Below, piece by piece: positions 1-24,384 of a stretch of 64,000 nt of DNA. The notes beneath the pieces were generated by a model, which worked only from the letters and a program-made list of their open reading frames with translations, was not told the DNA's origin and searched no databases. Source of the DNA: Verrucomicrobiia bacterium (GTDB taxonomy: Bacteria; Verrucomicrobiota; Verrucomicrobiia; JAWXBN01); assembly GCA_033764445.1 (NCBI GenBank), contig JANRIZ010000008.1, forward strand, positions 13,634 through 77,633, written 5' to 3'. The first letter of the stretch is position 1. Each line of letters starts with the position of its first letter. A program made the position numbers and the translations under genes.

Positions 1-450
1 CAGTTGGGCGTCCATGATCATTCGTCCAGACCGACCGTTTCCGTCATTGAAGGGGTGAATGTGTTCAAAGCGTGCGTGGGTAAAGGCCACAACGGCCATT
101 TGTTCTTGCTGGGTCCGGGCCTCCCTAAGCATGAGGTGGGTTTGTTCCCGGAGGAGTTCGAGTTCTGGGAGTATCCGTGCGGAGTCCGCACCTAGTTTTC
201 CGCCAAACATGACCATGGATTGGGGTTTGCGAATTTGCCCGGCGTCCGGGCTAACCTGATGAAACATGATTTTATGGACATTGAGCCAGTCTGTCGGCTC
301 CGGGGTTGACACTGGATAAAACCCAAAAAAACCATACGCAGCATCTGTCGATTTTTTGACCTTGTTTTCATAATCTTGAAGGTCTTTGACAGAAGGGAGA
401 ACACCATTGCGGACAATGTTGTTCCATGAGTGTTGTTGATCGTTTGTCAT
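1..450 (-). CDS. Fic/Doc family protein (partial, C-terminus beyond window edge)
   Basis: Hand translation of minus strand from ATG at 450..448 runs open to position 1 and ends ...IHPFNDGNGRSGRMIMDAQL, matching the canonical Fic motif HPFx[DE]GNGR. Not in the ORF track because there is no stop inside the window. Confidence 0.8.
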   Translation of the reverse strand, partial: MTNDQQHSWNNIVRNGVLPSVKDLQDYENKVKKSTDAAYGFFGFYPVSTPEPTDWLNVHKIMFHQVSPDAGQIRKPQSMVMFGGKLGADSARILPELELLREQTHLMLREARTQQEQMAVVAFTHARFEHIHPFNDGNGRSGRMIMDAQL

Positions 451-483
451 TGAATTTATGGGGTTTAATGCTATAGTATCAAC

Positions 484-762
484 ATGGATTACCAAAAGCT
501 AGAAGCCCGGGCCATAGAACGGGGTTTGACCGAGTATCAAATTGCCAAACTCATACATACCACCAATAGCAACGCGATTGAGGGATATGATTCTCTGTCG
601 ATTGACCAGAACATTGACATCCTTTTGGAAGCAGAAAAAGAATTTGAGACAGGAGACACCTTCAAGCTTCTCGGTCTTCCGGTCCCTCCAGACCTCAAGG
701 AACGAATGGCCCATCTGAGGTCGGGCCTGCCCGCCTCCGTTGAGGTCCGCCCTGCTGCGTAA
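484..762 (+). CDS. hypothetical small protein, divergent from fic
   Basis: 92-aa ORF with no recognisable motif; sits divergently upstream of the Fic gene. Confidence 0.3.
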   Translation: MDYQKLEARAIERGLTEYQIAKLIHTTNSNAIEGYDSLSIDQNIDILLEAEKEFETGDTFKLLGLPVPPDLKERMAHLRSGLPASVEVRPAA

Positions 763-846
763 GGATCGCACAATAGAAAATTTCAATCCTCTGGCCAGAG
801 CCGGGGGATTTTTTTTGTGAATGCCTAGGCACGATTCCATAAAATT

Positions 847-1566
847 TCAGTATTTGGGCCAGAACCTGACGTTGAGGCCTTCCTGGGATGGAACGCCGTT
901 TTGGATTCTCTGGGTATTTTTGAAAACCAGATAGTAGCCGTCCCCATTCTCCGGTCGCCGGACTTCCAAGCGGACGCCCATGGTGGCCAGTTTTTGGAGA
1001 GTGGCCCGGTTTTCGACATTGAGAGTTTCAAGGGATGTGATTCGATCCTGGAACCGGGCATTGAGTTTGCCCTGGGCAAGAGCAATGACGGTCAAAGTCA
1101 CCGCCAAAGCGAGGGAACCGCAGACCATGAAAGCAGTCGCCCACGCACCCGGACTAGAATTTTGTTTCCCGGTAGTCTTATCGTTGGCCCCCGGCGCTGT
1201 CGGTCGCTGGGCCAGACTTTCGTTTAGTTCTTTGACAGTCCCTCGGATGGATTCCACAGATTCCCGGAACTGCCCCGAGTCCTGATTGAGGGCGGTCATC
1301 GTGTTGTTGAGGACTTTGATATTGAAAGCCAACGCCCGGATCACGTCCCGGATTTCGTCAATCTCCTCTTCGGGTTCCTCGTCAGGTTTATCAAGCTCTT
1401 CTGGATAGTCGGGTTCTACAGCTTTTTCTTCCTCGGGTTCCTCCAGGGCTGGAGCTGGTGGCTCAGCTTGAAAAGGAATGGTGGCTCCATGAGATTTAAG
1501 GACGTTGGCAAGTTTTGCCCTCCGTTCCTCATCGGACAAAGGGGAATCAATCGGAGTATCGTTCAT
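847..1566 (-). CDS. hypothetical protein with acidic N-terminal region, one TM segment and coiled coil
   Basis: 239-aa ORF co-oriented with the relaxase block; Glu/Pro-rich acidic stretch then a hydrophobic helix. Confidence 0.45.
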   Translation of the reverse strand: MNDTPIDSPLSDEERRAKLANVLKSHGATIPFQAEPPAPALEEPEEEKAVEPDYPEELDKPDEEPEEEIDEIRDVIRALAFNIKVLNNTMTALNQDSGQFRESVESIRGTVKELNESLAQRPTAPGANDKTTGKQNSSPGAWATAFMVCGSLALAVTLTVIALAQGKLNARFQDRITSLETLNVENRATLQKLATMGVRLEVRRPENGDGYYLVFKNTQRIQNGVPSQEGLNVRFWPKY

Positions 1567-1823
1567 TCGACCTCCGGGGCAACGTCTGGTTTGAGTAGGA
1601 CCAATTCGATATAATGGAAGACATTCATTTTTGGATCCGGAATCTCTTGGGAAAAGTGGTCCCAGAAAACCATGGTGGTCGGCATCGGATTGTTTTCAGA
1701 GGCGGGGACATGCAGACATCCTTTAATGGCTTCCTTCCGGACAATGAACCGCTCAGCGGAGAATTTGATATATTTTGAGTCAACGATTCGTTTCTGTTCT
1801 TCGGGACGTGTGCTTTGGATCAT
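1563..1823 (-). CDS. hypothetical protein
   Basis: 86-aa ORF; 4-nt ATGA overlap with the downstream gene and with the relaxase stop suggests translational coupling. Confidence 0.4.
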   Translation of the reverse strand: MIQSTRPEEQKRIVDSKYIKFSAERFIVRKEAIKGCLHVPASENNPMPTTMVFWDHFSQEIPDPKMNVFHYIELVLLKPDVAPEVE

Positions 1824-3061
1824 GGATTGATTCCTTTCTTAATCCCTTGTTTTGGGCCGGATGAAAACTTTGGGCCTATGGCCCCCGGCACAATGGGATT
1901 TTTGATTTTTTGAGATGGTGACTGATAAACTTTTGTCTTGAGCTTCTGGCTGGGGACGAGGGTTTCGGTTGGCTCGTCTCCTCCCGCAAAGAAAACCCGG
2001 CCAGTGGGTCGGAGCTGCTTCTTGCGTTTTTGGAGCCCGGCCACATAGAACTGACGCATTTCAACTCGTTTGGCCTGGAGAGCGCGGACCTTTGTCCATT
2101 TGATTTCCTTGAAGACCTCCTCCGTGAGACGAATCCAGACGTTCGATCTTATTCCCAGTAGCCGTTTGGCCATCCCGTCTGCGCGGGATTTTCTCATGGC
2201 CATCTTTTCCTCGGCAATCTGCTTGTCGAGTTTTGCTATCTGTTCCCGTTGGAACTTCAACATTTCCCATGAATGATCAAAAGCTTTGACCTTGGGGACG
2301 TCCATTTTTGGAGTAATCATAAACTCCTCACTCCGCAAATGTTCGCGGGCAAATTTGGCCACCGCCTCCGGATCGGCTGCCCGTTTGAGCCATTGATTGA
2401 TCTGAACATCCGCTGATTTTTTTACAAAACCGAGTTTGTCCTTTTGGCCGTTCCAGTTGTGTCTGTACCTAGCAAGTTGATTACTGAACCCCACACGTTC
2501 CCCGTCGCGGGTACGCGGATGAACGAAAACGTGAGCATGGAGGTTGTCCGTGTCGTGATGGAGTCCAAAGCAATAACCGAGTGGGTCCCCTGGGTGGAAG
2601 TTATCAGAATAATTGCGCATTGTTTTAACAACAATGGATTTCAAAACTTCGTCCGGGTTAAGCCCGGCAGCGGTCATCTTGTCCCGGAATTCATTGGAAA
2701 GAGAAAAGATCAACCTATGATGAGTTGTTTGAAGTTTTGGGTATCGGGCATCGTGGCTACGCCATTCTCTCAAGATTCGCTCTTTGAGTTGTTCCGGGGT
2801 CATGTCCTGCTGATGGGTAAATGTCCCATCGGGATTCAATCCGACCTTGGCGTAAAAGAACCCTTCCGCGATCACCAAACCAAGTTTGTCCTTGTCCAAA
2901 TATTCATAGGCTTGCCACGGTTTGGGCGTATAGGTTTTACCTTCCTTCATCGCGTGAATGGTATCCGCCTCAAACTTCAAATCAGAAAGTTCATCGAGGT
3001 AGTCGGGCGAAAACTCGTCCGTCCACGTCTTGGATTTTTTGATAAGAATGGGTTGCTTCAT
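1820..3061 (-). CDS. relaxase/mobilisation nuclease, MobA/VirD2-like (MOBP/Q type)
   Basis: 413 aa; contains GLHHDTDNLHAHVFVHP, the relaxase His-triad motif III (HxDxxHxH). Confidence 0.75.
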   Translation of the reverse strand: MKQPILIKKSKTWTDEFSPDYLDELSDLKFEADTIHAMKEGKTYTPKPWQAYEYLDKDKLGLVIAEGFFYAKVGLNPDGTFTHQQDMTPEQLKERILREWRSHDARYPKLQTTHHRLIFSLSNEFRDKMTAAGLNPDEVLKSIVVKTMRNYSDNFHPGDPLGYCFGLHHDTDNLHAHVFVHPRTRDGERVGFSNQLARYRHNWNGQKDKLGFVKKSADVQINQWLKRAADPEAVAKFAREHLRSEEFMITPKMDVPKVKAFDHSWEMLKFQREQIAKLDKQIAEEKMAMRKSRADGMAKRLLGIRSNVWIRLTEEVFKEIKWTKVRALQAKRVEMRQFYVAGLQKRKKQLRPTGRVFFAGGDEPTETLVPSQKLKTKVYQSPSQKIKNPIVPGAIGPKFSSGPKQGIKKGINP

Positions 3062-3291
3062 AGTTTATTCAAAAGTTCTTCGGTGTTGGACCGGACTACT
3101 TTGATTTCATCAGAAATCTTCCCCGCCTTCCCAAGAGTTGAGTCATCGAGACCGTCACAAGTCAAAACAGCCCGGAGGGCGGCTTGGTTAAGTTTACAGT
3201 TCCATCGGCCAGCAAGATTTTTTTGCGCCCGTTTGAAAGCCTTTATGGCATCAGGGGGCAAAATGATGGTGACCATTGAGCGTTTTGGCAT
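3058..3291 (-). CDS. MobC-like ribbon-helix-helix mobilisation accessory protein
   Basis: 77 aa, ATGA overlap with relaxase start; N-terminal beta-strand plus helix pattern (MVTIILPPDAIKAFKRAQ...NQAALRAVL) as in RHH relaxosome proteins. Confidence 0.45.
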   Translation of the reverse strand: MPKRSMVTIILPPDAIKAFKRAQKNLAGRWNCKLNQAALRAVLTCDGLDDSTLGKAGKISDEIKVVRSNTEELLNKL

Positions 3292-3363
3292 AGGTTATGA
3301 CCTTTCTTTCACGTAACAGAGTGGAGTGTTTTTGAGAGAATGACTTCCAGTCAGAATCGAAAA

Positions 3364-3394
3364 GTAAAAAAGTTCGACTTTTTTACATATCCTG
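3364..3394 (+). other. candidate oriT: 9-bp inverted repeat (gtaaaaaag/cttttttac, 5-bp spacer) followed by nic-like TATCCTG
   Basis: Seen in sequence 66-95 bp upstream of the mobC start. MOBP relaxases nick at YATCCTG|Y just 3' of an inverted repeat. Confidence 0.4.
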
Positions 3395-3701
3395 TTTCCC
3401 CGAGAAAATTCGACTTCCGTCGTTTTTTCGAGGGATTCGGACCGGCTAATTGCCGGGAGAAAAGGCGTTTTGACCGGGACAATTTCCCGGTGAAGGCAGG
3501 GGGCGTGACTGCCCCCAGACCCGGACTCTTCACGGCAAAGCCGGGATGTGTCCAGGGGCGGGTTGTTGCCTTTCCCCGCAAAAAATCGCCTTCCGGCGTG
3601 TTTTGGAGGGGTAGGGACCCGCAGTATCGGCGGGGACCAAGGCTGTTCATCCCGGATAAAGGCCGGGGAAAAAGCTGGGGCCAATTTTCCGTGGCAAGAG
3701 G

Positions 3702-4664
3702 TCATAGACTGAACCCTTTTGACCCCTGAGTTGAAAGGGCGACTGGTTTTTGGAATGAGGGTTTGACCGGCACGGCTACCGGGCCAGACTCAATGTCTGG
3801 GGTGAATTGCTCGTTGTTCTCCCATGAAATTCCTTGAATGAGATCGGTCGCCTTCTGTGCTTGTCCGGCAGCTTGTACCACCATAAGCGGATCATTTTCC
3901 AAAGCTACGATCCAATCTTGTATATAGCCCGCCGGGTGCTCGAAGGTGATTTTATCCATGATCCCCGCCTGATTGGACAGGAAGGAAGCCCCAATTTCAG
4001 CTATCAACTCCTCTTTGGCGTATTCTGGAGTGGAGCGTTTTGCCCCTAAAGTGGGTCGGGCTAACCGGGAGGAATGACCCGTTGCATGGGTCATTTCATG
4101 AAACAAAGTGTGATAAAATAACTCCTGCGAGCGAAACTGCGCCCGGGGAGGCATTAGAATTATATCATTTTTAAGATCGAATGCCGCCAATTTTGCCCCT
4201 TCTTGAATCGGACAAATTTTGGCTTGTTCGACGATTTCCTGGGCCTTGGCAAGGTCGCGGGCTGGGCTGGCGGGTGCGATAGACGGATGTTCAATCCCCT
4301 CGGTTTGCATCAGATTGAATGCATTATAGTAGCGTAGCATTGGAACTTGTTTGACTTTGCCGTCCTTTTCCAAGACAGGTTTTCCTGTCTCGTCGAGCTT
4401 GGGAAGGAACTTCCAAAAGACAATCAAAGTTGACTTGGACCCTTTTTTAATGGTTCCACCCAAGTCTTGGGCTTGCTTGAAAGTGAGCCAATAGGGCGAG
4501 CCATATCCTTTCATCATGGTCAATAGAACGTTGATCCCGCGGTACGGTTTCCGGGTGACAAGGTTTTGGGGAACACCATTTACCCATGGCATTTTCCACG
4601 GAATTTGCCCTTGCTTGAGTAATTCCAGCATCTTATCGGTGATGATTTGATAAACTTCATTCAC
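3702..4664 (-). CDS. ardC: ArdC-like antirestriction protein (N-terminal ssDNA-binding DUF1738 domain plus C-terminal HExxH zincin)
   Basis: N-terminus YQIITDKMLELLKQGQIPWKMPW...YRGINVLLL matches the ArdC_N consensus; HEMTHATGH metalloprotease motif. Confidence 0.8.
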   Translation of the reverse strand: MNEVYQIITDKMLELLKQGQIPWKMPWVNGVPQNLVTRKPYRGINVLLTMMKGYGSPYWLTFKQAQDLGGTIKKGSKSTLIVFWKFLPKLDETGKPVLEKDGKVKQVPMLRYYNAFNLMQTEGIEHPSIAPASPARDLAKAQEIVEQAKICPIQEGAKLAAFDLKNDIILMPPRAQFRSQELFYHTLFHEMTHATGHSSRLARPTLGAKRSTPEYAKEELIAEIGASFLSNQAGIMDKITFEHPAGYIQDWIVALENDPLMVVQAAGQAQKATDLIQGISWENNEQFTPDIESGPVAVPVKPSFQKPVALSTQGSKGFSL

Positions 4665-5862: not shown

Positions 5863-5863
5863 C

Positions 5864-7839: not shown

Positions 7840-8064
7840 ATGAGTGTGACAGACATCAACAAGGCTCTGGATGGTTTGGCGGCCGCCGAAAGAATGGAAG
7901 TTGCCGCGCATCTGAACGCACTGCTTTTCAACTGGATGGATGATGATTGGGACCAGCAAATGATTGCCAATGATGCCCCTCTTCGGGCCATGCGTGAAAA
8001 GTCAGAAGCAGCTTTCAAGTCCGGACGGGCTACGCCCCTCGAAGAGGGTTTGGACAAGCCATGA
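7840..8064 (+). CDS. putative antitoxin partner of the RelE/ParE toxin
   Basis: 74-aa ORF whose stop overlaps the toxin ATG (ATGA); no antitoxin fold recognised. Confidence 0.4.
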   Translation: MSVTDINKALDGLAAAERMEVAAHLNALLFNWMDDDWDQQMIANDAPLRAMREKSEAAFKSGRATPLEEGLDKP

Positions 8065-15965: not shown

Positions 15966-16351
15966 AGTTGTTCCTCTTTTTTGGAAGCGGCAGCTTCATT
16001 ATGAACTTCCTGAAAGTGGTTCTTTTGGGTATCCCGTTCTATCGGGTGATTTAACCAATAAACGGAGGTCAAGATGATGATTTGGATGGTAATAATGTGG
16101 ACGCAAAATGACATTGCTCTCATGAAGTCAATCTTTTCATTGCTCGTAATGGTGAGCGGATTTGTTGCGTCTGTTTTGTACATTTGCGATTTTTTGGGGA
16201 GGAGAGAAAAGGTTGTTGAAATCATTGAAAGAGTGACCGCTGAAATCAGCAAAACAGCGCATAATTTCGGCAGGCTCATTTCCGATTTTTTCACAGGGGA
16301 TAGTCTTGATCTGCTGGTCAGGTCAGTGGTCTGTGGATCGTTGTTTTGCAT
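15962..16351 (-). CDS. small membrane protein, duplicated family (paralog of 7206..7610)
   Basis: C-terminal FCVHIITIQIIILTSVYW...QEVHNEAAASKKEEQL matches the 7206..7610 product; ATGA overlap with trbJ. Confidence 0.35.
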   Translation of the reverse strand: MQNNDPQTTDLTSRSRLSPVKKSEMSLPKLCAVLLISAVTLSMISTTFSLLPKKSQMYKTDATNPLTITSNEKIDFMRAMSFCVHIITIQIIILTSVYWLNHPIERDTQKNHFQEVHNEAAASKKEEQL

Positions 16352-16526: not shown

Positions 16527-16762
16527 TTCCAGTTTCATTCCCAGTAGCCCATTGTTTCCTTGTACAGGCGTGAGCCTGTCTAAATTCCTTCCTAAGCGAC
16601 GAGACCGACCGGAGGGAGGGCGAGTGACTAGTCAGGCCCGGAGCGAAGCGGAGGGCCATCCAGTGCTTACTGAGGGCGAGAGCCCGAAGGTCGATTGACA
16701 GGATGGGGGTCTGGGGGAAGGGGCCGGGAAAAATTTTTCGCGAAAATCCGTTTCCCCATCTA

Positions 16763-16780
16763 TGGATAAGATGGATAAGA
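16763..16780 (-). promoter_or_regulatory. two tandem DnaA-box-like sites (cTTATCCATcTTATCCAT on the minus strand)
   Basis: TTATCCAT x2 matches the DnaA box consensus TTATNCACA in 7 of 9 positions; adjacent to an AT-rich stretch and the iterons. Confidence 0.5.
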
Positions 16781-16851
16781 AAAGGGATAGTAAAAAATAT
16801 TGACAATGAATTTTGTTGGATTGAAAGCATCTTATGAAGAATTAAAGCCTT

Positions 16852-17085
16852 CATATCGCATTGAATTCCCCCCAAAAACAGGGGTATAACGCATCGAAAT
16901 CCCCCTAGTGATATATTTTTATTGCCATATCGCACTGTATTCCCCCTATCAAAACGGCATAACGCATCGAAATCCCCCCAAACAGTGGGTATAACGCATT
17001 GAATTCCCCCTATCAAAACGGCATAACGCATCGAAATCCCCCCAGTTTCCCATCTGGAAAAGTCATATCGCATCGAATTCCCCCT
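16852..17085. repeat. iteron array: seven ~22-bp direct repeats (YATAWCGCAYYGWAWTCCCCCY) at 32/42-bp spacing; candidate plasmid oriV
   Basis: Copies start at approximately 16852, 16885, 16926, 16957, 16990, 17022 and 17064; the array abuts the rep stop codon at 17087. Confidence 0.75.
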
Positions 17086-17086: not shown

Positions 17087-18124
17087 TTAAGCAGCATGAC
17101 TTTTACCCTCCTTTTGGGAGGCTTTGACCTCCAGCATGTAGGTGTTGCCTTTGGCAATTTCGTCAGCAAAAGCTCGGGACACATAGAGCGTCCAGACCGC
17201 CCCAGACAGTTTGGGCCGTTTCCCCGTTTCGATGTAACGCAAGTCCTCTTTGTATGCCTGGATCGGGTGCAGATAGCCGCTGTCCTGGAGTTCCTTGAGA
17301 GCTTTTTGGACCGTGACAAGATAATTCCTAAATTGCTTTAGAGGCGCAACCGGTGCTTCTCGAATGATGGTTTCGAGGGAAATATGAAAGCCGGTTTGCT
17401 TGAAATGGTCGTGGCCAGTTGCCTGTCTGTAATTGTGGTTGATGCGTGTAGCCAGCCAGCGAGCCAGAGGCATCTTGAGGCTGCAGAGTTTTGTATGATT
17501 GATAGGGAAGTAGGCTTGATTCTTGATGGCCTCGCCAATCAGGCTGTGGAAGGACACCCTCACGGTACTGCTCTTTCCGGAATCATCCCCATTTTGATAA
17601 TTATAGGCGAGGTTGATGTAGGTCTGGTGGTGACCAATCCGGTTGTATTTGCCTTCTGCCAGCAATTCCAGCGAGGCAAGGGAAAGGATGTAAAGAGCCT
17701 CCTTGATTTCGGCGATTTTGTAGCCGTGTCCGACGGCGACAAGTTCCTTACGAATTCGGTAGAGAGTGGTATTGACGCAGACAAAGTAGCTTTGTGTTTC
17801 GGCCCCGACATTTAATGATGACTGTTCAACCGCGAGTTTTCGCAAGACTCGCTCAACGAGTTCTTCACGCGCCCCTGGTAAACGATAGACACCCTTGGCA
17901 ATCTCGGCACACCGGACCACAGCCCGGAGGGATCGGTTTTTAAACTTGAATTCAGTGACCTGCATTTCATGCGGTTTTCCTTCAAAAAAACGGGTTGCCG
18001 CATCGTAAATATCCACCGTCCTGGATTCATCGTTTTTTCCAAACCACCCTTGAAAAAAGTCAGTCTGCCGGGCCTCTGAGGCCGGAACCATGACTTCCTT
18101 CTGTGGTTTTTCTTTGTCGTTCAT
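17087..18124 (-). CDS. plasmid replication initiator (Rep) protein
   Basis: 345-aa ORF whose 3' end abuts the iteron array; winged-helix-like basic protein. Called from context plus general RepA-like features. Confidence 0.55.
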   Translation of the reverse strand: MNDKEKPQKEVMVPASEARQTDFFQGWFGKNDESRTVDIYDAATRFFEGKPHEMQVTEFKFKNRSLRAVVRCAEIAKGVYRLPGAREELVERVLRKLAVEQSSLNVGAETQSYFVCVNTTLYRIRKELVAVGHGYKIAEIKEALYILSLASLELLAEGKYNRIGHHQTYINLAYNYQNGDDSGKSSTVRVSFHSLIGEAIKNQAYFPINHTKLCSLKMPLARWLATRINHNYRQATGHDHFKQTGFHISLETIIREAPVAPLKQFRNYLVTVQKALKELQDSGYLHPIQAYKEDLRYIETGKRPKLSGAVWTLYVSRAFADEIAKGNTYMLEVKASQKEGKSHAA

Positions 18125-18128: not shown

Positions 18129-18539
18129 TTATCCCTGAAAATTCGTTGGCTCTACGTGATTCAAAGTTGTGTCGTCGCTTGCGATTTGCTGACAGACCTC
18201 TTCCGGGAGATTTGGATTCAACAGGTGAAGCTCATAGCGCGAGTTCCGATAAAAGAGCCGGATGACGGGAATCCGGAGGTAATAGATGGAAATCCAAGGA
18301 AAAGAGTCATCCGTAGTATCGCGGTTAAACACGACAGCCCCATTATTTTTGAGATCGGCAAAATCGGGATCAAGGTTGTAGTGAGTTTCGAGAAAGAATG
18401 CCAAAGCCAGCGTGAGATAATGTTTGCGCCGGTGCCCAATTTCAAAAGTCCCTGCCGGGAAATAAGCCTCATCATAGATGAGGTAATTTCCACAACATCT
18501 AATCTTTTCAGGATGAGGCATTTTCTCGTGTTCGTTCAT
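18129..18539 (-). CDS. hypothetical protein
   Basis: 136 aa; its stop lies 5 nt upstream of the rep start, co-oriented. Confidence 0.4.
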   Translation of the reverse strand: MNEHEKMPHPEKIRCCGNYLIYDEAYFPAGTFEIGHRRKHYLTLALAFFLETHYNLDPDFADLKNNGAVVFNRDTTDDSFPWISIYYLRIPVIRLFYRNSRYELHLLNPNLPEEVCQQIASDDTTLNHVEPTNFQG

Positions 18540-18570
18540 AACTTTATAAGTTAATATGATATGAAGTTTA

Positions 18571-18849
18571 TTATTTTTGGGTTTCGACGACCGGGACTGA
18601 TTGGTCTTGAATGAGCAACCGGCAAAGCCGATACAATTCGATGATGGAAAAAATATTGATCATTGCGGCAATTATGCTGATAGCAGTCGGCAAATTTTTG
18701 GAGTCCACAGGGAATTTTGTGGAGAAAATCAGGGCCAAGGAAAGAGTCCCAAAAAGTGACATCCCAAATGTCAAAAGCCGGTACAACCGCCGCAGGTGCC
18801 TTTCCTGCTGTGTGAGTGCCATTTGTTTGTTCATTTCGCTTTCCTGCAT
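18571..18849 (-). CDS. small membrane protein
   Basis: 92 aa with two TM helices. Confidence 0.35.
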   Translation of the reverse strand: MQESEMNKQMALTQQERHLRRLYRLLTFGMSLFGTLSLALIFSTKFPVDSKNLPTAISIIAAMINIFSIIELYRLCRLLIQDQSVPVVETQK

Positions 18850-18954: not shown

Positions 18955-19398
18955 TCACTTGCCCTGGGTTTCAACGACCGGGACGGCCACAGTGGAATTG
19001 GTCAGATATATGGTGCCCTGGGGCGTCTGGACAGTCGTAGGCGTGGGAACTTCGTAGTAGTTGTATCGAAGCTGGCCCTTGGTAGTGGTGGACGGCTCTT
19101 TCGCTCTCAACTGTGCCCAATAGAGACGCTTGGCAGCATCAGAGCCGCCCCGGTCATAACCGCGGTTGTATTCATTGCGTTTGGCGTTGCTGACAGAGGC
19201 TTGGATGCCTTCGGAAATCAGGACCCCACCGGCTGCGCCTCCGATGGTGGCAATCGGATCGCCTCCGGAAGCCATGTAACCGACCCCCGCCCCGGCTGCT
19301 CCGGCTCCCGCATCGTAGAGGCCGCGGTTGCTGGCACATCCGGTCAGAAAAATGGCTACCGGGAAAACAAAAATCAAAAGAGTGGAATGAATTTTCAT
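18955..19398 (-). CDS. glycine-zipper lipoprotein (17-kDa surface antigen/Pcp-like; VirB7/TrbH-like candidate)
   Basis: Lipobox FLTGC; GAGAAGAGVGYMASGG...GGAAGGVLISEG glycine-zipper motif. Confidence 0.5.
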   Translation of the reverse strand: MKIHSTLLIFVFPVAIFLTGCASNRGLYDAGAGAAGAGVGYMASGGDPIATIGGAAGGVLISEGIQASVSNAKRNEYNRGYDRGGSDAAKRLYWAQLRAKEPSTTTKGQLRYNYYEVPTPTTVQTPQGTIYLTNSTVAVPVVETQGK

Positions 19399-19727
19399 GG
19401 GGTGATTCGTGTGATTGGTTTGATGGTTTGAAGTGGGATATTTTCGGGCCGGGTGTTCTGGGGTGTGAGTTGGGCATTGAGTTCCTGGATAAACCCCTGT
19501 CGGAGTTTGTCAGCGGAGTGGGGGAAGGTGTCGGCCACGGCCAGAACGTCCTCATGGATTTTGAGGATGTTCCGGCGTGTGGTCATTCGGAATGATCCCG
19601 CCTGACGGACATCAAACCCCTCCTGGGCAGAGAACTCATTGGTGGCCTTGAGTACGTCCGCCCCCAGAGTCAGAAGGTCGTCTTTCATCTGGCGGTAATG
19701 TTCGAGGTAGTAGAGGGGCTTTTTCAT
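19395..19727 (-). CDS. hypothetical protein
   Basis: ORF 19395..19955 trimmed to the Met at 19727 (MKKPLYY), directly after the upstream stop. Confidence 0.4.
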   Translation of the reverse strand: MKKPLYYLEHYRQMKDDLLTLGADVLKATNEFSAQEGFDVRQAGSFRMTTRRNILKIHEDVLAVADTFPHSADKLRQGFIQELNAQLTPQNTRPENIPLQTIKPITRITP

Positions 19728-19728
19728 G

Positions 19729-20595
19729 TTATCTGTCGTAGTAACCGGGCCTCGCCTCGGCATCGGGGACAGTGGCCCCGTTGCCTCCGCCAAAGGGAGA
19801 GCGGCCGTTGTTGAGGAAGGTGTTGCCCGTGTTAAAAATCCCCATCCCCATTCCGCCGAAGGAAATGACATCGTTCCAGAGATTCCCGCCCAAGAGGCCA
19901 CTGGTCCTATTTGAGAACTTGGTGTTCTGGGCGTTGAGCTGGGCTTGCAGGTCATTGACCTGGGACTGGGTGGCCAGACCCGTGGGAATGTTGGCCAGTT
20001 GGTTGGAGAGGGTGGTGTATTGACCTTGGAGAGTCGCCAACTGGTTACTGAGGGAGGTAATGTTTGCGGTATTGGTCGTCACTTGTCCCTGTGTGGCCGC
20101 CAGAGAATTGCTGAGAGAATTAATCTGCCCTTGGAGATTGGTTACAAAGGCATTGAGTTGGGCAAGAATCCGCAAATCCGTTTCCCCGTCCTCGTTTTCA
20201 AGAATGATCAGCGTCGAGGCGGTTTTGGTGGTCAGTCCGGCCCCTGCGGATCGGACCAATGAAGTGGTCAATGATCCGGGCGGAAGATTTGTAAATTTCT
20301 GAACCGCCGCCCCACCACTGACCCAATCACCCCCATTATCTTTGTTTGCTTCCCGGTAGGTGATGATATTGACGCCGTTGGTTTGGAGGGTAAAGGCCTC
20401 GGCTGAGGATGAATCTCCGACGGTATTGACAACCGTGTAATAAGAAACCGACCCCGTCCTGGTGAGGGTAAAGTCAAATGACTGGAAAGTGGCTCCAACA
20501 GCGATATTTTGGGCTGTATTGGTATAGACTATCTTCTGAGCCTGGAGAACAGACGTGAGACAAAGCAGGGTGAGGAGAGTGAGAATTTTTTTCAT
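19729..20595 (-). CDS. secreted repeat-containing protein (possible pilus-tip/adhesin-like T4SS accessory)
   Basis: Signal peptide MKKILTLLTLLCLTSVLQA; internal repeats LSNQLATLQGQYTTLSNQLANIPTG / LQGQINSLSNSLAATQGQVTT. Confidence 0.45.
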   Translation of the reverse strand: MKKILTLLTLLCLTSVLQAQKIVYTNTAQNIAVGATFQSFDFTLTRTGSVSYYTVVNTVGDSSSAEAFTLQTNGVNIITYREANKDNGGDWVSGGAAVQKFTNLPPGSLTTSLVRSAGAGLTTKTASTLIILENEDGETDLRILAQLNAFVTNLQGQINSLSNSLAATQGQVTTNTANITSLSNQLATLQGQYTTLSNQLANIPTGLATQSQVNDLQAQLNAQNTKFSNRTSGLLGGNLWNDVISFGGMGMGIFNTGNTFLNNGRSPFGGGNGATVPDAEARPGYYDR

Positions 20596-20634: not shown

Positions 20635-23304
20635 TTAGGCGGCTTCGCGGCCCATCAAGTCCTCGGGCCGGATGTTGGTCTTTTCCTGTTTGGTCCAGTA
20701 ATCCTTGACGATTTTGCGGGTGGCCTCGGAAACCACATTGATCATGGTGCCGCAGATGGGCCGTTGGGCGTCGAGGTGGTAGTAGGTGAATTTTGAATAG
20801 GCGTAGTCGATGTGCTCGGGAAGATCGTATTCCATGATCTCGTTTTTGGTCGCCTCCGGCAGGCCAAAGACCTGGCTGATGTCCTCAAGGTCATCCCGGT
20901 CGTTCTGTTTCTGGAGCAGGAGCATTTTGGCGTTACCGAAGACAATGGGCCGGATACGGCTTTGTTTGAACTGGGCGTACTGCTGGACGATTGAGCAGAC
21001 CCAAGCGCGGAATTTGCGCATTTGCGCGTAGGTTTCCTTGACAAATTCCTCTCCCCCTGGGATGTCGAGCAAGCGGGCCACTTCCTCAAAAATCACCGCC
21101 TTCCGGAGACTCCTGGGAAGGGAAATGATGTGTTGCCTGACAAACATGGCTATGAGGAAACCGGCCAAGTCCTTCAGCTCGGAATTGGCGCGGAGATCAC
21201 CCAGTTCAAAGTGGGTGAGGGCCTGAGTGAGTTTGATATTTGTCACCCCGTCGAAAAGTTTTCCGTTTGATCCACGGTCCGCCGTCCACGTTTCCAAGAC
21301 CGTGGCAATGTCCCGGACAAACCGGGCATCGTGGTTTGACATCGGAGTCATTTTCATGGCTTCGACAAGGGTTGAGTGCCTGGGCATTTCTTCAGGCGTC
21401 AAAAAGGCATAGGCCAGATTCCTCACCAGAATCTGGGTGGTGGGAGTTTTGTAGAATCTTGCGACATCCTCGCCACTGTATGATTCAATGACTTTGTGAA
21501 GTTCCAGACTCGCCTCGTTTTCGCGGGCATAAGCAAAAGCCTCGACAAAGGTGGTCGTGGCATCATCCTTCTTGAGAATGCGCTGGATACGACTGATGGC
21601 CATGGTCATCCGGGCAAAGTAATCCGCCTTGTCGGGCCGGTACTTGACCCAGTTCTGGAAGGTTCGGGTGTAAAGCCGTGTAATATAGGAGGTGATGAGG
21701 GATTTCTTGAGATACTGCTTATCCTCGTCGGATACATGGCCAGCCATGCGTGCCGCAATGGCCGAGGCCGTTTCAATGTGGCTGAAATTGAGTGGCAACC
21801 CGTGCGTGTCCAGATAATTGATGGTCAATTCCCCATCGGCCTGGAGAAAGATGGTCTGACCCATGCAGGCTTTGACCAGAGGGCCGTAGGAATTTCCCTC
21901 CTCGATGATGGCCGTGTAGTGGAGAAACGGAAGAATCTGACTGAGAAGGTCAAACATGAGCATGGATTTCCCCGCCCCTGACATGCCCAGCAGAACGGCA
22001 TGTTGAGGCTGACCATTGATGTCGGTCCTGATTCCGGCTAATGCGTTGTGGTTTGAGTCGTAGAATGCCTCCGCCTGGTCAAGATGCCCTGAAAAGGACG
22101 AACTCAAGGGCATGATCCGGGCCAACACCTTGTCCTCACTGTATTTTTTATGATCGGTGTATGTCCCGTAAATCCAGCCTGGCCAGCTTTGGAAAAAGAG
22201 CTTCCGGCTCGTGGCAAAAGTCAGCGGCCTGTGATACCTGGCTCCTGGAATACGTTCAATGATGTCTTCGAGGCGGGCCGTGTTCCTGGCCAATTCATCG
22301 GGGGAGGCTGCCCAGAGCCTGAAAATGTAATCAATCTCATGGGGAGTGGTCACCCCCAGGGAAATATTTTCGAGCCGTTGTTTGCGCATGTTGAATTCGG
22401 TAAGCAAATCCTCGTCCTGTTTGGAAGCGTAGGAAGTCTTGAGGTCATTCATGATGGCCTGTTCCTTGCGCTTGGCCTTGCGGATGTCCATCGGATAGAC
22501 GTTGACAGTGATGTTGTAGTCCAGAAGGTCCGTGTGCGTGTATTGCAGGGCGGAAGTCTCCTCGGTGACATCCGGCAGGCGGGATAGAACGAGAATGTTC
22601 TGGTAGAACCCATCCCACGCAAACCCAAAGGCGGGCCGGTGCCTCAACCCCCCCTGCATCTCGCTGTTGAGACAATTCCGGCAGATGGATTCCCCTGGCT
22701 GAAACTGGTTGCTGATGTCGAGATTAAAGCGTGTATGAAGCGAGGGCCGGAGGAAATAGCTCAAATGCTTGAAATGATCAATATCATCCATGGGAAGAAG
22801 ACTGGAACCCGTGGGGCGGAAACGGTTCATCAGGGAGCTTTGGAGCAACTCAAATTCGGAGTGAAGCTCGTCAATAATGTCCTCCCAGAACTTGCGGATG
22901 TCATTTTTGGAAAGACCCGCCGGTGGGCTGTTTTTGATTGGCCGTGAAAAGTAAACCCTCATCACTTCGCGCCGGTGCTTCCGGTTCCGGACATTGTTCC
23001 AGGCTCGGGCGGCCCTTTCCTCCCGGTTTTTTTTGGGCCATCCGTCGGGCATGGCCTTGGTCTGGACATTGTAGGCCAGAATCTCCTTCCGATAATCGCT
23101 ATCCGGCATGAATTGCCCTTGGATGCGCCATTTGACAGACAGGGAATTGAGTTGGTTGCACACCGCCCGCTCGAATTTGGCCAAACCGGCATCACCGGCA
23201 TTGGACCGGTCCGGGCCTTCAAAAAGAAAGCCACGGGAAACCCACTGGGGCGGGTCGCCCCATACGAGCATATCTTTGATAAAATAGCCGTCCGGGCAGT
23301 TCAT
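20635..23304 (-). CDS. trbE: VirB4/TrbE/CagE-family T4SS ATPase
   Basis: 889 aa; Walker A motif GMSGAGKS; size and architecture of VirB4. Confidence 0.85.
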   Translation of the reverse strand: MNCPDGYFIKDMLVWGDPPQWVSRGFLFEGPDRSNAGDAGLAKFERAVCNQLNSLSVKWRIQGQFMPDSDYRKEILAYNVQTKAMPDGWPKKNREERAARAWNNVRNRKHRREVMRVYFSRPIKNSPPAGLSKNDIRKFWEDIIDELHSEFELLQSSLMNRFRPTGSSLLPMDDIDHFKHLSYFLRPSLHTRFNLDISNQFQPGESICRNCLNSEMQGGLRHRPAFGFAWDGFYQNILVLSRLPDVTEETSALQYTHTDLLDYNITVNVYPMDIRKAKRKEQAIMNDLKTSYASKQDEDLLTEFNMRKQRLENISLGVTTPHEIDYIFRLWAASPDELARNTARLEDIIERIPGARYHRPLTFATSRKLFFQSWPGWIYGTYTDHKKYSEDKVLARIMPLSSSFSGHLDQAEAFYDSNHNALAGIRTDINGQPQHAVLLGMSGAGKSMLMFDLLSQILPFLHYTAIIEEGNSYGPLVKACMGQTIFLQADGELTINYLDTHGLPLNFSHIETASAIAARMAGHVSDEDKQYLKKSLITSYITRLYTRTFQNWVKYRPDKADYFARMTMAISRIQRILKKDDATTTFVEAFAYARENEASLELHKVIESYSGEDVARFYKTPTTQILVRNLAYAFLTPEEMPRHSTLVEAMKMTPMSNHDARFVRDIATVLETWTADRGSNGKLFDGVTNIKLTQALTHFELGDLRANSELKDLAGFLIAMFVRQHIISLPRSLRKAVIFEEVARLLDIPGGEEFVKETYAQMRKFRAWVCSIVQQYAQFKQSRIRPIVFGNAKMLLLQKQNDRDDLEDISQVFGLPEATKNEIMEYDLPEHIDYAYSKFTYYHLDAQRPICGTMINVVSEATRKIVKDYWTKQEKTNIRPEDLMGREAA

Positions 23305-23672
23305 GATATTGCTTCCCAGGAGTCTGAGTTTTCATCAGGAAAGGCGAGGGGATGGCGGATGGATTTTGCAAGGTCTGGCTTCCACGATTTTTCAAGGTTG
23401 AAAACATCATGGAAATAATCCTTGTCGTAGGCCGGAGGTTTACCCTGCCTGAAACCGAATATCCAAACGCTCGCCAGAATCACAGGTACGGCCGCCAGCC
23501 CAAACTTGATCGCATAGTGCAAGTTCCAAGTCTTGAGCTGATAGAGGCACCCCATGGCAAGCATGACTCCCCCGATGAATATGAAGGCGTTTTCATTGCC
23601 TTCAAAGATCAGGAACTTGCCCTTGCTTTCGTCGGCTCCGAGTGTGCGATAGACGGTAGGCATATGGGTCAA
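23301..23672 (-). CDS. VirB3/TrbD-like small membrane protein
   Basis: ~120 aa with a hydrophobic hairpin, immediately upstream of and overlapping virB4 (TTG/ATG start at 23672/23663). Confidence 0.45.
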   Translation of the reverse strand: MTHMPTVYRTLGADESKGKFLIFEGNENAFIFIGGVMLAMGCLYQLKTWNLHYAIKFGLAAVPVILASVWIFGFRQGKPPAYDKDYFHDVFNLEKSWKPDLAKSIRHPLAFPDENSDSWEAIS

Positions 23673-23818
23673 TTTCCCAGGATGAGCCAGTCAAAGAGGT
23701 AGATGCCAATGGCTGCGGCGGCCAAGGCCACGCCCGTCCAGTTGCGTTTGCCTTCCTCTGTCTTGAAGTAGAAGAAGTAGCCGGAGGCCATGAGAAGGAT
23801 GATGGTGAGGATTTTCAT
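23669..23818 (-). CDS. unannotated 49-aa two-TM ORF (MKILTIILLMASGYFFYFKTEEGKRNWTGVALAAAAIGIYLFDWLILGN)
   Basis: Hand translation; ATG at 23818, TGA overlapping the downstream start; not in the ORF track (<60 aa). Confidence 0.3.
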   Translation of the reverse strand: MKILTIILLMASGYFFYFKTEEGKRNWTGVALAAAAIGIYLFDWLILGN

Positions 23819-23848
23819 ATGATATTATGATGATGTTTTGTTTGAGGA

Positions 23849-24148
23849 TTATTCGATTTTGACTTTTGAGCCTGATAGCCCGCCGATATCGTAGTAGGCT
23901 TCCATGATGGCCGGTGCGGCCGCCACCATGAGCCCGATCAAAAGCCCAAACTTGGCTTTTTCGCGGTCGGAACTCATGTAGAACCCGGACCCGGCGACGG
24001 CAATGGCTCCGAGAAGGAAAAGAATTTTGAAGACAATGTTTCCGCCCTTGGAAAGCAACTGATCAAGATTAGCGGCGGCAAAAATGAAGGCTGGGGAGAA
24101 TAGGATTTGATTTCCTATGATACTAAGGTGGATGATAAACATCTGCAT
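23849..24148 (-). CDS. VirB2/TrbC pilin-like protein
   Basis: 99 aa with two hydrophobic helices separated by a short charged loop; first gene of the T4SS operon. Confidence 0.45.
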   Translation of the reverse strand: MQMFIIHLSIIGNQILFSPAFIFAAANLDQLLSKGGNIVFKILFLLGAIAVAGSGFYMSSDREKAKFGLLIGLMVAAAPAIMEAYYDIGGLSGSKVKIE

Positions 24149-24384
24149 GATGGTTGGTTCCTTCGTTCACATTCAAAAAAACATTGACGCCTGACCTTGA
24201 ATCAAGGGTTGTCAGTGTTTTTAAGAAATGTGCGTTTTGTTTGGTTTTTTGGGTTCTATTCATCGCTTTTCCATTATGAACTGGCATAATTAACTATGCA
24301 CAATTTATGTATTGTAAAGTAAATGAAAAAATGTGGCTATGATGAAAGCGAAAGCACCTGAGGAGCTTGGACAATCAGCCTGCA

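What the first reader, a model, noticed from the sequence alone, without database searches (positions are those of the whole stretch)
1..24360. Conjugative plasmid-like element (T4SS, relaxase, oriT, Rep/iterons, TA, Fic, ArdC) integrated next to core chromosomal genes
The first ~24 kb hold a near-complete conjugative backbone: Fic toxin, MOBP/Q relaxase with MobC and a candidate oriT, ArdC, Toprim primase, ParE/RelE TA, SSB-like protein, VirB2/3/4 then TrbJ-L-F-G-I in Ti order, and a rep gene with iterons. It is almost entirely on one strand at ~50% GC. From ~25 kb onward the sequence switches to ~60% GC core genes (opp, accBC, smc, adk, fmt, ruvAC, ribH). An iteron-type replicon sitting inside a chromosome suggests an integrated conjugative plasmid or a plasmid-chromosome cointegrate. 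VirB11 and VirD4 are not in the window, so the element probably extends past the left edge. Conjugative systems are sparsely described in PEP-CTERM/PilX-type (PVC-like) hosts.
Basis: partly seen in the sequence, partly recalled or inferred. Interest (0 to 1): 0.8.

Follow-up and report, generated by a model that had tools for sequence, protein, structure and literature searches.

The report
Integrated conjugative element with plasmid replicon
A 34-kb self-transmissible DNA element sits in the chromosome of an uncultured Verrucomicrobiae bacterium, bounded by 28-base repeats; it carries an integrase, a complete plasmid-type replication origin, and a DNA-transfer machine of a lineage that is common in this phylum but that standard profiles do not recognise.

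Summary
Window 1-24,314 is the right-hand 24 kb of a ~33.9-kb integrative conjugative element (ICE) in a Verrucomicrobiae MAG. Identical public contigs extend it 9.6 kb past the left edge. That stretch holds the rest of a Fic gene, a second Fic gene, the VirD4-type coupling protein, an AAA+ ATPase, ParA, a tyrosine recombinase and a ScpB-like gene. It ends in a 28-nt direct repeat, 27/28 identical to window 24,287-24,314 (attL/attR).

Separate assemblies of two other runs cross the chromosome-element junction, so it is not a chimera. Contigs from three further runs stop exactly where a k=31 graph would branch if excised-circle and empty-site junctions co-occur.

The T4SS (VirB2/3/4/5/6/9/10-like, Trb order, no VirB11) belongs to a lineage with 390 relatives, nearly all in Verrucomicrobiota MAGs. 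It fails every curated VirB4 subfamily model. This is a known kind of element in a poorly described variant; interest is moderate.

The parts
1..450 (-). 5' part (150 codons) of a 257-aa Fic-domain gene that runs off the left edge. The element continues 9.6 kb further left: second Fic gene, VirD4-type T4CP, AAA+ ATPase, ParA, tyrosine recombinase, ScpB-like gene, attL repeat.
   Evidence: Motif HPFNDGNGRSGR. Pfam Fic on the full gene in L008. Extension.
847..1823 (-). Two ORFs of unknown role (239 aa with a TM segment and coiled coil; 86 aa) downstream of the relaxase gene
   Evidence: No family hits. Called as genes in the Logan contigs.
1820..3061 (-). Relaxase, MOBP-like (413 aa)
   Evidence: Motif HHDTDNLHAHVFVH. 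Sub-threshold Pfam MobL/Relaxase and NCBIfam MobP1/MobP2/TraI_MobP hits.
3058..3291 (-).
   Evidence: Position only: it overlaps the relaxase start. No family hit.
3359..3395 (+). Candidate oriT. Inverted repeat GTAAAAAAGT-TCG-ACTTTTTTAC, then ATATCCTG|T. The nic-like core ATCCTG is at 3389-3394, 8 nt after the repeat.
   Evidence: The comparison with the IncP nic region is from memory. Not tested for conservation.
3702..4664 (-). ArdC-type anti-restriction / zincin metallopeptidase protein
   Evidence: Pfam ArdcN 115 bits and MPTase-PolyVal 110 bits
5053..5862 (-). MuF_C-domain protein
   Evidence: Pfam MuF_C 88 bits
5864..6829 (-). Toprim_2 + DUF3991 primase-like protein
   Evidence: Pfam. 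Weak NCBIfam dnaG-domain hit.
7840..8321 (+). Toxin-antitoxin pair: 74-aa antitoxin candidate (7840-8064) and ParE-like toxin (8061-8321)
   Evidence: PF24732 ParE_like, 35.1 bits, cutoff 24.4. The antitoxin is assigned by position only.
8394..9788 (-). Three small ORFs of unknown role (221, 88, 105 aa).
   Evidence: No significant family or PDB hit
9785..10567 (-). Lipoprotein (lipobox LLSGC), a conserved member of this T4SS family
   Evidence: Homologs in 52/80 loci by tblastn and 26/26 by phmmer, always after TrbI
10939..11955 (-). VirB10/TrbI
   Evidence: Pfam TrbI 58 bits, cutoff 35
11952..12944 (-). VirB9/TrbG-like protein
   Evidence: Family members hit Pfam CagX (7 members, best 1e-6, below cutoff). 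Conserved synteny.
12941..13621 (-). Protein in the VirB8/TrbF position: N-terminal TM helix, then an alpha+beta domain
   Evidence: Conserved in 25/26 loci. No sequence link to VirB8. Low-confidence model with weak NTF2-like matches. Inconclusive.
13644..14927 (-). VirB6/TrbL-like polytopic membrane protein with a Gly/Ser/Pro-rich tail
   Evidence: Relatives hit Pfam TrbL (4 members, best 5.5e-6, below cutoff)
15129..15965 (-). VirB5/TrbJ-like secreted coiled-coil protein
   Evidence: Relatives hit Pfam T4SS (VirB5) and DUF4141, below cutoff
15962..16351 (-). 129-aa membrane protein, paralog of the 134-aa ORF at 7206-7610
   Evidence: 75-76% DNA identity over two stretches of 72 and 58 nt (D6/D7)
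16761..17084 (-). oriV. Seven 21-nt iterons GGGGGAWTTCRATGCGWTATR at 17064, 17022, 16990, 16958, 16926, 16885 and 16852. Then an AT-rich stretch and two TTATCCAT boxes (16761-16778).
   Evidence: No other copy in the window. The same layout follows Rep homologs in L094, L096 and L097.
17087..18124 (-). Replication initiator (345 aa), tandem winged-helix, distant IncA/C-RepA relative
18129..18849 (-). 136-aa and 92-aa ORFs that came in with the rep module
   Evidence: Absent from all 80 related T4SS loci. Other Rep homologs also have a small upstream ORF, but without sequence similarity.
18955..19398 (-). Lipoprotein (lipobox LTGC), a conserved T4SS family member (VirB7-like by position)
   Evidence: 64/80 loci by tblastn and 26/26 by phmmer, directly after VirB4
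19395..20595 (-). 110-aa and 288-aa (secreted, coiled-coil) ORFs shared only with the closest relative, L014
20635..23304 (-). VirB4-superfamily ATPase (889 aa)
   Evidence: Pfam P-loop_TraG 42 bits. Below the cutoff of every NCBIfam VirB4 subfamily. 100% identical to NCBI SFY92_00755.
23304..23818 (-). VirB3-position membrane protein (120 aa) and a 49-aa membrane peptide
   Evidence: The 120-aa protein is conserved in 78/80 loci directly upstream of VirB4. No Pfam VirB3 hit.
23849..24148 (-). VirB2/TrbC-like pilin
   Evidence: Relatives hit Pfam TrbC (7 members, best 1.3e-7, below cutoff)
24287..24314 (.). Right attachment-site repeat (28 nt; exact core 24287-24309). Its partner lies 33,886 bp to the left, outside the window.
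   Evidence: 27/28 match to L008 12874-12901, E 3e-7. Contig ends coincide with it.

Best explanation
This is an integrative conjugative element of about 33.9 kb in the chromosome of an uncultured Verrucomicrobiae bacterium. It also carries a complete iteron-type plasmid replicon.

Shown:
- The element is physically joined to chromosomal genes.
- It is bounded by 28-nt direct repeats.
- It encodes one tyrosine recombinase, an MOBP-like relaxase, a VirD4-type coupling protein, and a VirB4-based mating-pair apparatus in Trb gene order.
- It encodes a winged-helix Rep followed by seven iterons and DnaA-box-like sites.
- It also carries ParA, a ParE toxin pair, two Fic proteins and ArdC.

Inferred mechanism:
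1. The recombinase crosses over within the 23-nt identical core to excise a circle.
2. The relaxase nicks the + strand at the ATCCTG site next to the inverted repeat at about 3390.
3. The coupling protein passes the relaxase-bound strand to the T4SS.
4. ArdC, the primase-like protein and the neighbouring small genes lie just 3' of the nick, so they would enter the recipient first as a leading region.
5. In the recipient, or after excision in the donor, Rep bound to the iterons could maintain the circle as a low-copy theta plasmid, with ParA and ParE stabilising it, until the recombinase reinserts it at the 28-nt site.

The rep module is a secondary insertion into a T4SS cluster of a type that is widespread in Verrucomicrobiota genomes.
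For: - Identity and extension: Logan contigs are 99.9-100% identical to the window and supply the missing left 9.6 kb.
- att repeats: 27/28 nt in direct orientation, 33,886 bp apart.
- Junction: contigs from two other runs, L011 and L007, cross the chromosome-element junction. L007 carries 3 SNPs against the window.
- Contig ends: L005, L006, L008, L009, L012 and L013 end at the positions expected for k=31 branch points. The pattern fits an empty-site junction in DRR729085 and a circle junction in DRR729081 and DRR729084.
- T4SS: ten syntenic genes conserved across 26 loci examined in detail. Family links to TrbC, VirB5, TrbL, CagX and TrbI.
- Chromosomal flank: opp, accBC and SMC.
- Composition differs modestly from the chromosome.
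Against: - No read-level data were available. The circle and empty-site junctions are inferred from where contigs stop, not seen as sequence.
- Only 7 nt of the left chromosomal flank were recovered, so the left neighbourhood is unknown.
- The relaxase, T4CP and VirB4 all score below the curated family cutoffs. The VirB8-position protein has no demonstrable homology.
- The oriT is a single-locus pattern match and ATCCTG alone is expected by chance.
- The recombinase is Xer-like and lies 2 kb from the element end, so it could be a multimer-resolution enzyme.
- Nothing shows that Rep, the T4SS or the recombinase are active.
Confidence: 0.8

Rival explanations
1. The element is primarily an autonomously replicating conjugative plasmid. 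The chromosomal copy is an occasional cointegrate, made when its Xer-like multimer-resolution recombinase acts on a chromosomal pseudo-site.
For: The oriV is complete, with Rep, ParA and a ParE toxin pair. The recombinase has XerC/D-type domain architecture and is not adjacent to the att site. Contig-end patterns suggest a circle junction without an empty-site junction in two runs, as expected if circles outnumber empty sites. Rep homologs sit on plasmid-like contigs.
Against: The integrated junction appears in every run with a contig reaching it: the att repeat with the first 7 element bases in L012 and L013, and the full junction in L011, L007 and the MAG contig. Relatives of the T4SS are overwhelmingly on contigs of 0.1-3.6 Mb, so integration is the norm for the lineage. 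The difference from the main explanation is one of degree.
Confidence: 0.12
2. The join is an assembly or binning chimera: a plasmid contig wrongly attached to a chromosomal contig at a short shared sequence.
For: GC and tetranucleotide composition step at the boundary. One sample's contigs break exactly there. The source is a metagenome-assembled genome.
Against: Separate k=31 assemblies of two other runs run straight through the junction (L011, L007). The exact repeat is only 23 nt, shorter than the 30-nt overlap a k=31 graph needs, so it cannot cause a false join. The other end of the element carries the matching repeat followed by different sequence.
Confidence: 0.03
3. The element is a fixed, no longer mobile genomic island: the remnant of an ICE or plasmid whose transfer and replication genes are decaying.
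For: No experimental evidence of activity. Several core proteins are very divergent from characterised families.
Against: All backbone ORFs are intact and tightly packed with overlapping stops and starts. The seven iterons are well conserved. The att repeats differ at 1 of 28 positions. The contig-end pattern points to excision products. The divergence is shared by the whole lineage of 390 relatives rather than being decay.
Confidence: 0.05

Closest known systems
Tn4371-family ICEs of Beta/Gammaproteobacteria (from my own knowledge; not compared by sequence here)
   Same: An ICE with a tyrosine integrase near one end, plasmid-type rep/par genes, a TraG/VirD4 coupling protein, and a mating-pair module in trb gene order (…E-J-L-F-G-I).
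   Different: The host is a Verrucomicrobiae bacterium. VirB4 fails the TrbE and VirB4_CagE models. There is no TrbB/VirB11, and a ClpB-NBD2-like AAA+ ATPase is conserved in the lineage instead. The Rep is IncA/C-like and its iterons are inserted inside the T4SS cluster.
IncA/C (IncC) plasmid replicon, e.g. pRMH760 RepA with 13 downstream iterons
   Same: 27% identity over 68% of Rep. Same architecture: a small upstream ORF, rep, then an iteron array starting at the 3' end of rep.
   Different: The iteron sequence is unrelated (ATATGTGGGAACGYTGCACG against GGGGGAWTTCRATGCGWTATR). There are 7 iterons rather than 13. The replicon sits in an integrated element in a different phylum. The window protein has no Pfam or NCBIfam hit.
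R6K Pi and Vibrio RctB (domains 2-3) iteron-binding initiators
   Different: 9-14% sequence identity. No sequence-level match to any PDB chain.
IncP (RP4) MOBP relaxase TraI and its oriT
   Same: His-triad motif HxDxDNxHxH. Candidate nick core ATCCTG 8 nt from an inverted repeat (the RP4 spacing is from memory). A small upstream accessory gene.
   Different: Scores 15-17 bits against cutoffs of 200-250 for the MobP1 and TraI_MobP models. No PDB relaxase match. The nick site is unproven.
Plasmid of Opitutaceae bacterium TAV5 (CP007054) and plasmid of Termitidicoccus mucosus
   Same: The only PLSDB records with a near full-length VirB4 match (26-27% identity, 88-93% coverage). Both are from cultured Verrucomicrobiota.
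   Different: Much more distant than the MAG relatives (41-57%). The whole cluster is annotated 'hypothetical', and MOB-suite assigns no mating-pair type.
ICEs that also persist as plasmids, such as pKLC102/PAPI-1 of Pseudomonas (from my own knowledge)
   Same: Dual lifestyle: integrated at an att site and present as an extrachromosomal circle with an origin of its own.
   Different: Different T4SS class (MPF_G), different integration target (a tRNA gene) and different replication functions. Not compared here.

Membership tests
Integrative conjugative element (ICE) | Inserted in a chromosome and bounded by direct att repeats | tested here: met
   28-nt repeats, 27/28 identical, 33,886 bp apart. 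Chromosomal genes on the right. Only 7 nt of the left flank were seen.
Integrative conjugative element (ICE) | Encodes a site-specific recombinase | tested here: met
   304-aa protein with Phage_integrase and Phage_int_SAM_1 domains, on the same 97-kb NCBI contig.
Integrative conjugative element (ICE) | Relaxase, coupling protein and a VirB4-based mating-pair apparatus | tested here: met
   T4CP with T4SS-DNA_transf, TrwB_AAD_bind and TraG-D_C domains. VirB4 P-loop domain. TrbI. Relaxase by motif and weak hits only.
Integrative conjugative element (ICE) | Excises to a circle and transfers | tested here: inconclusive
   Contig ends fall at the k=31 branch points expected for attP (DRR729081, DRR729084) and attB (DRR729085). 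The junction sequences themselves were not seen. Transfer cannot be tested here.
MPF_T / Trb-VirB type T4SS | VirB4 belongs to the TrbE or VirB4_CagE family | tested here: not met
   TrbE 15 bits against cutoff 810. VirB4_CagE 53 bits against cutoff 643. 27% identity to a classical TrbE in the ATPase motifs only.
MPF_T / Trb-VirB type T4SS | VirB11/TrbB traffic ATPase present | tested here: not met
   No tblastn hit with a TrbB query in the element or in 80 related loci.
MPF_T / Trb-VirB type T4SS | VirB2, 5, 6, 9 and 10 homologs in trb order | tested here: met
   TrbI is above cutoff. TrbC, VirB5, TrbL and CagX are matched only by relatives and below cutoff. The order is conserved.
Other curated VirB4 classes (F-type TraC, CD1110/Firmicutes, Bacteroidetes TraG, ICE-type PFL_4706, mycoplasma) | VirB4 reaches the family's curated score | tested here: not met
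   Best scores are 87 (cutoff 325), 83 (567), 29 (262), 12 (521) and 34 (590) bits. CONJScan profiles were not available.
Iteron-type theta replicon (Rep_3 / Pi / RepA class) | Initiator with tandem winged-helix fold | tested here: met
Iteron-type theta replicon (Rep_3 / Pi / RepA class) | Array of directly repeated 17-22 bp sites next to rep, in helical phase | tested here: met
   Seven 21-nt iterons spaced 32, 32, 32, 33, 41 and 42 nt. The arrangement is conserved next to distant homologs.
Iteron-type theta replicon (Rep_3 / Pi / RepA class) | Sequence membership in Pfam Rep3_N or related models | tested here: not met
   The window protein has no Pfam or NCBIfam hit. Of 52 relatives, 3 hit Rep3_N and 6 hit RPA.
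Iteron-type theta replicon (Rep_3 / Pi / RepA class) | Supports autonomous replication | not testable with these tools
   Needs a mini-replicon experiment.
MOBP relaxases | Reaches the MobP1, MobP2 or TraI_MobP model cutoff | tested here: not met
   14.5-16.6 bits against cutoffs of 200-250.
MOBP relaxases | His-triad motif HxDxxxxHxH | tested here: met
   HHDTDNLHAHVFVH in the translation.
ParE/RelE toxin-antitoxin | Toxin reaches the family cutoff and has a small upstream partner | tested here: met
   ParE_like 35.1 bits, cutoff 24.4. A 74-aa ORF overlaps its start by 4 nt.
Fic/DOC | Fic domain with the HxFx(D/E)GNGRxxR motif | tested here: met
ArdC | ArdC N-terminal domain plus metallopeptidase domain | tested here: met
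   115 and 110 bits.

The most novel reading that the evidence does not exclude
The T4SS here represents a distinct, phylum-wide mating-pair-formation class of Verrucomicrobiota (and some Planctomycetota) that current typing schemes miss. Its VirB4 lies outside all curated subfamilies. A single-module ClpB-NBD2-like AAA+ ATPase is a conserved syntenic partner and there is no VirB11. This particular member has captured an IncA/C-like iteron replicon, making it a truly bimodal element that can persist either integrated or as a plasmid.
Probability: 0.35. Interest if true: 0.65.

Novelty: new variant of a known kind. Interest (0 to 1): 0.5.

Why it matters
- Gene flow in Verrucomicrobiota is almost undescribed. 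Two broad T4SS evolution and nomenclature papers do not mention the phylum, and my literature searches found no description of this system.
- This one element anchors a lineage of at least 390 related T4SS loci in species-representative genomes, often several per genome. Annotation calls them 'hypothetical', and MOB-suite assigns no mating-pair type on a cultured strain's plasmid.
- It offers a compact, apparently active model, with defined att sites, a candidate oriT, and a small oriV that could be tried as a basis for vectors for a phylum that lacks genetic tools.
- It is a clear natural example of an ICE and an iteron plasmid merged into one element.

Tried and rejected
- Scanning GTDB species genomes with the T4CP alone found nothing, so the MAG is not in that collection.
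- No tRNA or Rfam family lies at or near the insertion site, so this is not a tRNA-targeting ICE.
- No significant repeat between the first 8.2 kb of the extension and the right junction. The att repeat appeared only once the contig end was fetched.
- Looking up the pilin gene to find a contig crossing the circle junction gave none.
- TRF missed the iterons next to Rep homologs. A seed-based repeat search found them.
- Rep has no PDB match by sequence or profile.
- VirB8 identity of the 226-aa protein could not be established. The profile search against PDB, hhalign against a Pfam-annotated VirB8, and a single-sequence model (pLDDT 53) were all negative or weak.
- The 'SSB-like' label for the 105-aa protein and a ScpA identity for the 246-aa protein found no support.
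- The small ORFs upstream of Rep homologs share position but not sequence.
- I considered that the recombinase and ScpB-like genes might be the host's own xerC/scpAB, marking the chromosome. I rejected this because their GC is 40-47%, the att repeat lies beyond them, and the closest integrase homolog sits in the same module next to ParA and a TrwC relaxase on another contig.

Full report
**What is in the window**

Bases 1 to about 24,300 carry some forty tightly packed ORFs, almost all on the - strand. GC is 0.48-0.56 there. From about 25 kb on, most of the sequence is 0.57-0.61 GC.

Profile searches confirm these genes:
- ArdC (3702-4664), a MuF_C protein (5053-5862) and a Toprim_2/DUF3991 primase-like protein (5864-6829).
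- TrbI/VirB10 (10939-11955).
- A VirB4-superfamily ATPase (20635-23304).
- A ParE-like toxin on the + strand (8061-8321), with a small upstream partner.

The first 450 bases encode the N-terminal 150 residues of a Fic protein with the canonical HPFNDGNGRSGR motif.

The relaxase (1820-3061) gets only sub-threshold MobL, Relaxase and MobP hits. It does carry the His triad HHDTDNLHAHVFVH.

The right-hand part of the window holds ordinary chromosomal genes. opp, accB, accC and SMC were confirmed by Pfam, and an adenylate-kinase P-loop motif was seen by eye. There is no tRNA gene or Rfam match anywhere in the window.

**Source and extension**

The VirB4 protein is 100% identical to SFY92_00755 of an NCBI 'Verrucomicrobiae bacterium' MAG, on a 97,036-bp contig.

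Logan assemblies of six runs (DRR729080-85) contain contigs 99.9-100% identical to the window. One of them extends 9.6 kb beyond the left edge. In order it holds:
- the rest of the Fic gene and a second Fic gene;
- a VirD4-type coupling protein (513 aa);
- a 296-aa single-module AAA+ ATPase resembling the second nucleotide-binding domain of ClpA/ClpB;
- ParA and several small ORFs;
- a 304-aa XerC/D-type tyrosine recombinase;
- a 246-aa ORF, a ScpB-like protein and a 74-aa ORF.

This whole stretch is 40-55% GC.

**Boundaries**

The last bases of that contig carry a 28-nt sequence, CAAT[T/A]CATAAATTGTGCATAGTTAATTA. It matches window 24,314-24,287 at 27 of 28 positions, in direct orientation, 33,886 bp away.

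The element therefore spans from 9.6 kb left of the window to window 24,314. The finding's end coordinate of 24,360 is about 50 bases too far. The DUF2442 gene at 24,385-24,687 lies outside the element.

**Is the integration real?**

Contigs from DRR729080 (L011) and DRR729083 (L007) run from the chromosomal genes through the repeat into the T4SS genes.

The exact part of the repeat is 23 nt. The overlap between adjacent Logan contigs is 30 nt, which fits k=31; that Logan uses k=31 is also my recollection. A 23-nt repeat cannot create a false join or a branch in such a graph. The chimera explanation is therefore excluded for practical purposes.

**Hints of excision**

This step is an inference. 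Six contigs end exactly at the repeat, at two kinds of position.
- In DRR729085, the chromosomal contig stops at the last base of the exact repeat, and the element's left-end contig stops 7 nt beyond it.
- In DRR729084 and DRR729081, the chromosomal contigs stop 7 nt inside the element. In DRR729084 the left-end contig stops at the last base of the repeat.

These are the positions where a k=31 graph must branch if a third junction is present. That junction would be the empty site (attB) in DRR729085 and the circle junction (attP) in the other two runs.

I did not see those junction sequences themselves. Read mapping would settle this.

**The replicon**

The 345-aa ORF at 17,087-18,124 has no Pfam, NCBIfam or PDB sequence match. 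Several results still identify it as a replication initiator.
- A profile search finds about 1,500 representative clusters. Of 52 sampled members, some hit RPA, Rep3_N, RepC or TrfA, and six carry a fused DnaA N-terminal domain.
- tblastn against PLSDB hits 1,267 plasmids. Among them are IncC plasmids, where the match is RepA (27% identity). That gene is likewise preceded by a small ORF and followed by 13 iterons.

Starting 3 nt after the stop codon, the window has seven 21-nt iterons, GGGGGAWTTCRATGCGWTATR. Their spacing is 32-33 or 41-42 nt. An AT-rich stretch and two TTATCCAT boxes follow. The iteron occurs nowhere else in the window.

Homologs that share only 34-38% identity (L094, L096, L097) sit in plasmid-like contexts: next to a classical Trb T4SS and ParE, or next to ParA and Tn3-family transposons. 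Each is followed by GGGGGAAAT-type iterons, and L094 also has the TTATCC boxes.

This conservation of protein plus cognate repeats is the strongest argument that the origin is functional. Function itself is untested.

**The transfer machine**

VirB4 scores below the curated cutoff of every NCBIfam VirB4 subfamily, including TraC-F, CD1110, VirB4_CagE, TrbE, Bacteroidetes TraG and PFL_4706. Among solved structures it matches only the Thermoanaerobacter VirB4 C-terminal domain, at 1.9e-5. It shares only the ATPase motifs with a classical TrbE.

A scan of GTDB species genomes with a VirB4 alignment found 390 relatives. Nearly all are in Verrucomicrobiota MAGs, and many listed ones lie on contigs of 0.1-3.6 Mb, sometimes two or three per genome. 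Identity is 41-43%, except for one relative at 57%.

Across these loci the following order is conserved: pilin, VirB3-position protein, VirB4, lipoprotein, VirB5-like, VirB6-like, VirB8-position protein, VirB9-like, VirB10, lipoprotein.

Members of the respective families hit Pfam TrbC, T4SS(VirB5)/DUF4141, TrbL and CagX at E 1e-3 to 1e-9, below Pfam's cutoffs. The VirB8-position protein could not be linked to VirB8.

No VirB11/TrbB homolog exists in the element or in any of 80 related loci. A homolog of the AAA+ ATPase is present in 69 of the 80, always divergently oriented 0.7-2.1 kb upstream of VirB4.

None of the related loci contains the rep gene, the 136-aa or 92-aa ORFs, the relaxase, the primase-like gene or ParA. 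The closest relative (L014) has only small ORFs where the window has rep. The replicon is therefore an insertion into the T4SS cluster, and the DNA-processing module differs from that of the relatives, at least within 10 kb of VirB4.

**oriT and direction of transfer**

This part is inferred. The 410-bp gap upstream of the accessory-gene/relaxase pair contains GTAAAAAAGT-TCG-ACTTTTTTAC followed by ATATCCTG on the + strand. That resembles the IncP arrangement as I recall it, with the nick core ATCCTG 8 nt from an inverted repeat.

If the + strand is nicked there, the first DNA to enter a recipient would carry ArdC, the primase-like gene and the small ORFs. All are oriented so that the incoming strand is their template. 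This is the usual logic of a plasmid leading region. It rests on one locus and a short motif.

**Comparison with known systems**

In function the element is an ICE of the kind that keeps plasmid maintenance genes. The Tn4371 family and pKLC102-like elements are the nearest concepts I know of; neither was compared by sequence here.

It is not a demonstrable member of MPF_T, of any other curated VirB4 class, of the MOBP models or of Pfam Rep_3, although it works like each of them.

I found no paper describing T4SS or ICEs of Verrucomicrobiota. Two broad T4SS papers do not mention the phylum. On the plasmid of the cultured Opitutaceae strain TAV5, the related cluster is annotated entirely as 'hypothetical', and MOB-suite assigns no mating-pair type.

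**Verdict**

This is a 33.9-kb ICE with defined att repeats. It shows indirect signs of excision, carries an inserted IncA/C-like iteron replicon, and has a T4SS from a widespread but unclassified verrucomicrobial lineage.

It is a new variant of a known kind of element rather than something categorically new. Interest is moderate. It would be higher if the T4SS lineage, with its AAA+ partner, proves to be a separate mating-pair class.

Noticed in passing
window 9445-9473, 13626-13654, 18552-18581, 20590-20615, 23815-23832; L008 7123-7140 and 11944-11969: An AT-rich, partly palindromic motif lies within about 40 nt upstream of the ATG of seven operon-internal genes that lack a GGAGG-type ribosome-binding site. 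On the coding strand it reads AATATCATAWTATCATATTA, often with AACTTATRAAGTT. Chance expectation for the motif in the window is 0, and there are 0 copies in the 39.7 kb of chromosome. It could be a shared operator, internal promoters or a centromere-like site.
   Followed up: partly
L008 6221-7111 (about 2.9-3.8 kb left of the window) and 69 of the related loci L014-L093: A 296-aa single-module AAA+ ATPase resembling ClpA/ClpB NBD2 plus its small domain is syntenic with VirB4 in 69/80 related loci. There it is always divergent, 0.7-2.1 kb upstream. VirB11 is absent from all of them. It may be an unrecognised T4SS component.
   Followed up: partly
L008 10001-12547; L101 10001-12931: The tyrosine recombinase is followed by an uncharacterised gene and a ScpB-like (PF04079) gene. 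The same trio sits next to ParA and a TrwC relaxase on an unrelated contig that carries the closest integrase homolog (38% identity). A ScpB-like protein therefore seems to belong to a mobile-element recombination or maintenance module.
   Followed up: partly
window 7206-7610 and 15962-16351: Two small membrane-protein genes in the element are paralogs: 75-76% DNA identity over two stretches of 72 and 58 nt. One lies beside the rep insertion and the other in the leading region.
   Followed up: no
window 24385-24687: A DUF2442 gene sits directly outside the att site, in a low-GC (~0.48) stretch. A 575-aa ORF with no family hit lies between it and the cyclase/opp genes. This flank may itself be old mobile DNA.
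   Followed up: no
window 24311-24339 (- strand): A promoter-like pair, TAGCCA-17-TACAAT, ends at the chromosomal edge of the att repeat and points into the T4SS operon. The count of such sites in this region is not above chance.
   Followed up: no
window 43500-44900: A low-GC (0.44) stretch with few ORFs lies between SMC and the adenylate kinase gene in the chromosomal part.
   Followed up: no
L007 and L012 compared with window 24320-24380: Contigs from DRR729083 and DRR729081 carry SNPs in the chromosomal flank, yet share the chromosomal flank, the att repeat and the first element bases; L007 continues about 4.4 kb into the element. At least two strain variants therefore appear to have the element at this site.
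   Followed up: partly
L094 1-8000: A distant Rep homolog with related iterons lies next to a fully classical Trb/VirB T4SS (TrbB, TrbC, VirB3, TrbE, VirB8, CagX, TrbI). This Rep-iteron replicon family therefore pairs with different transfer systems.
   Followed up: partly
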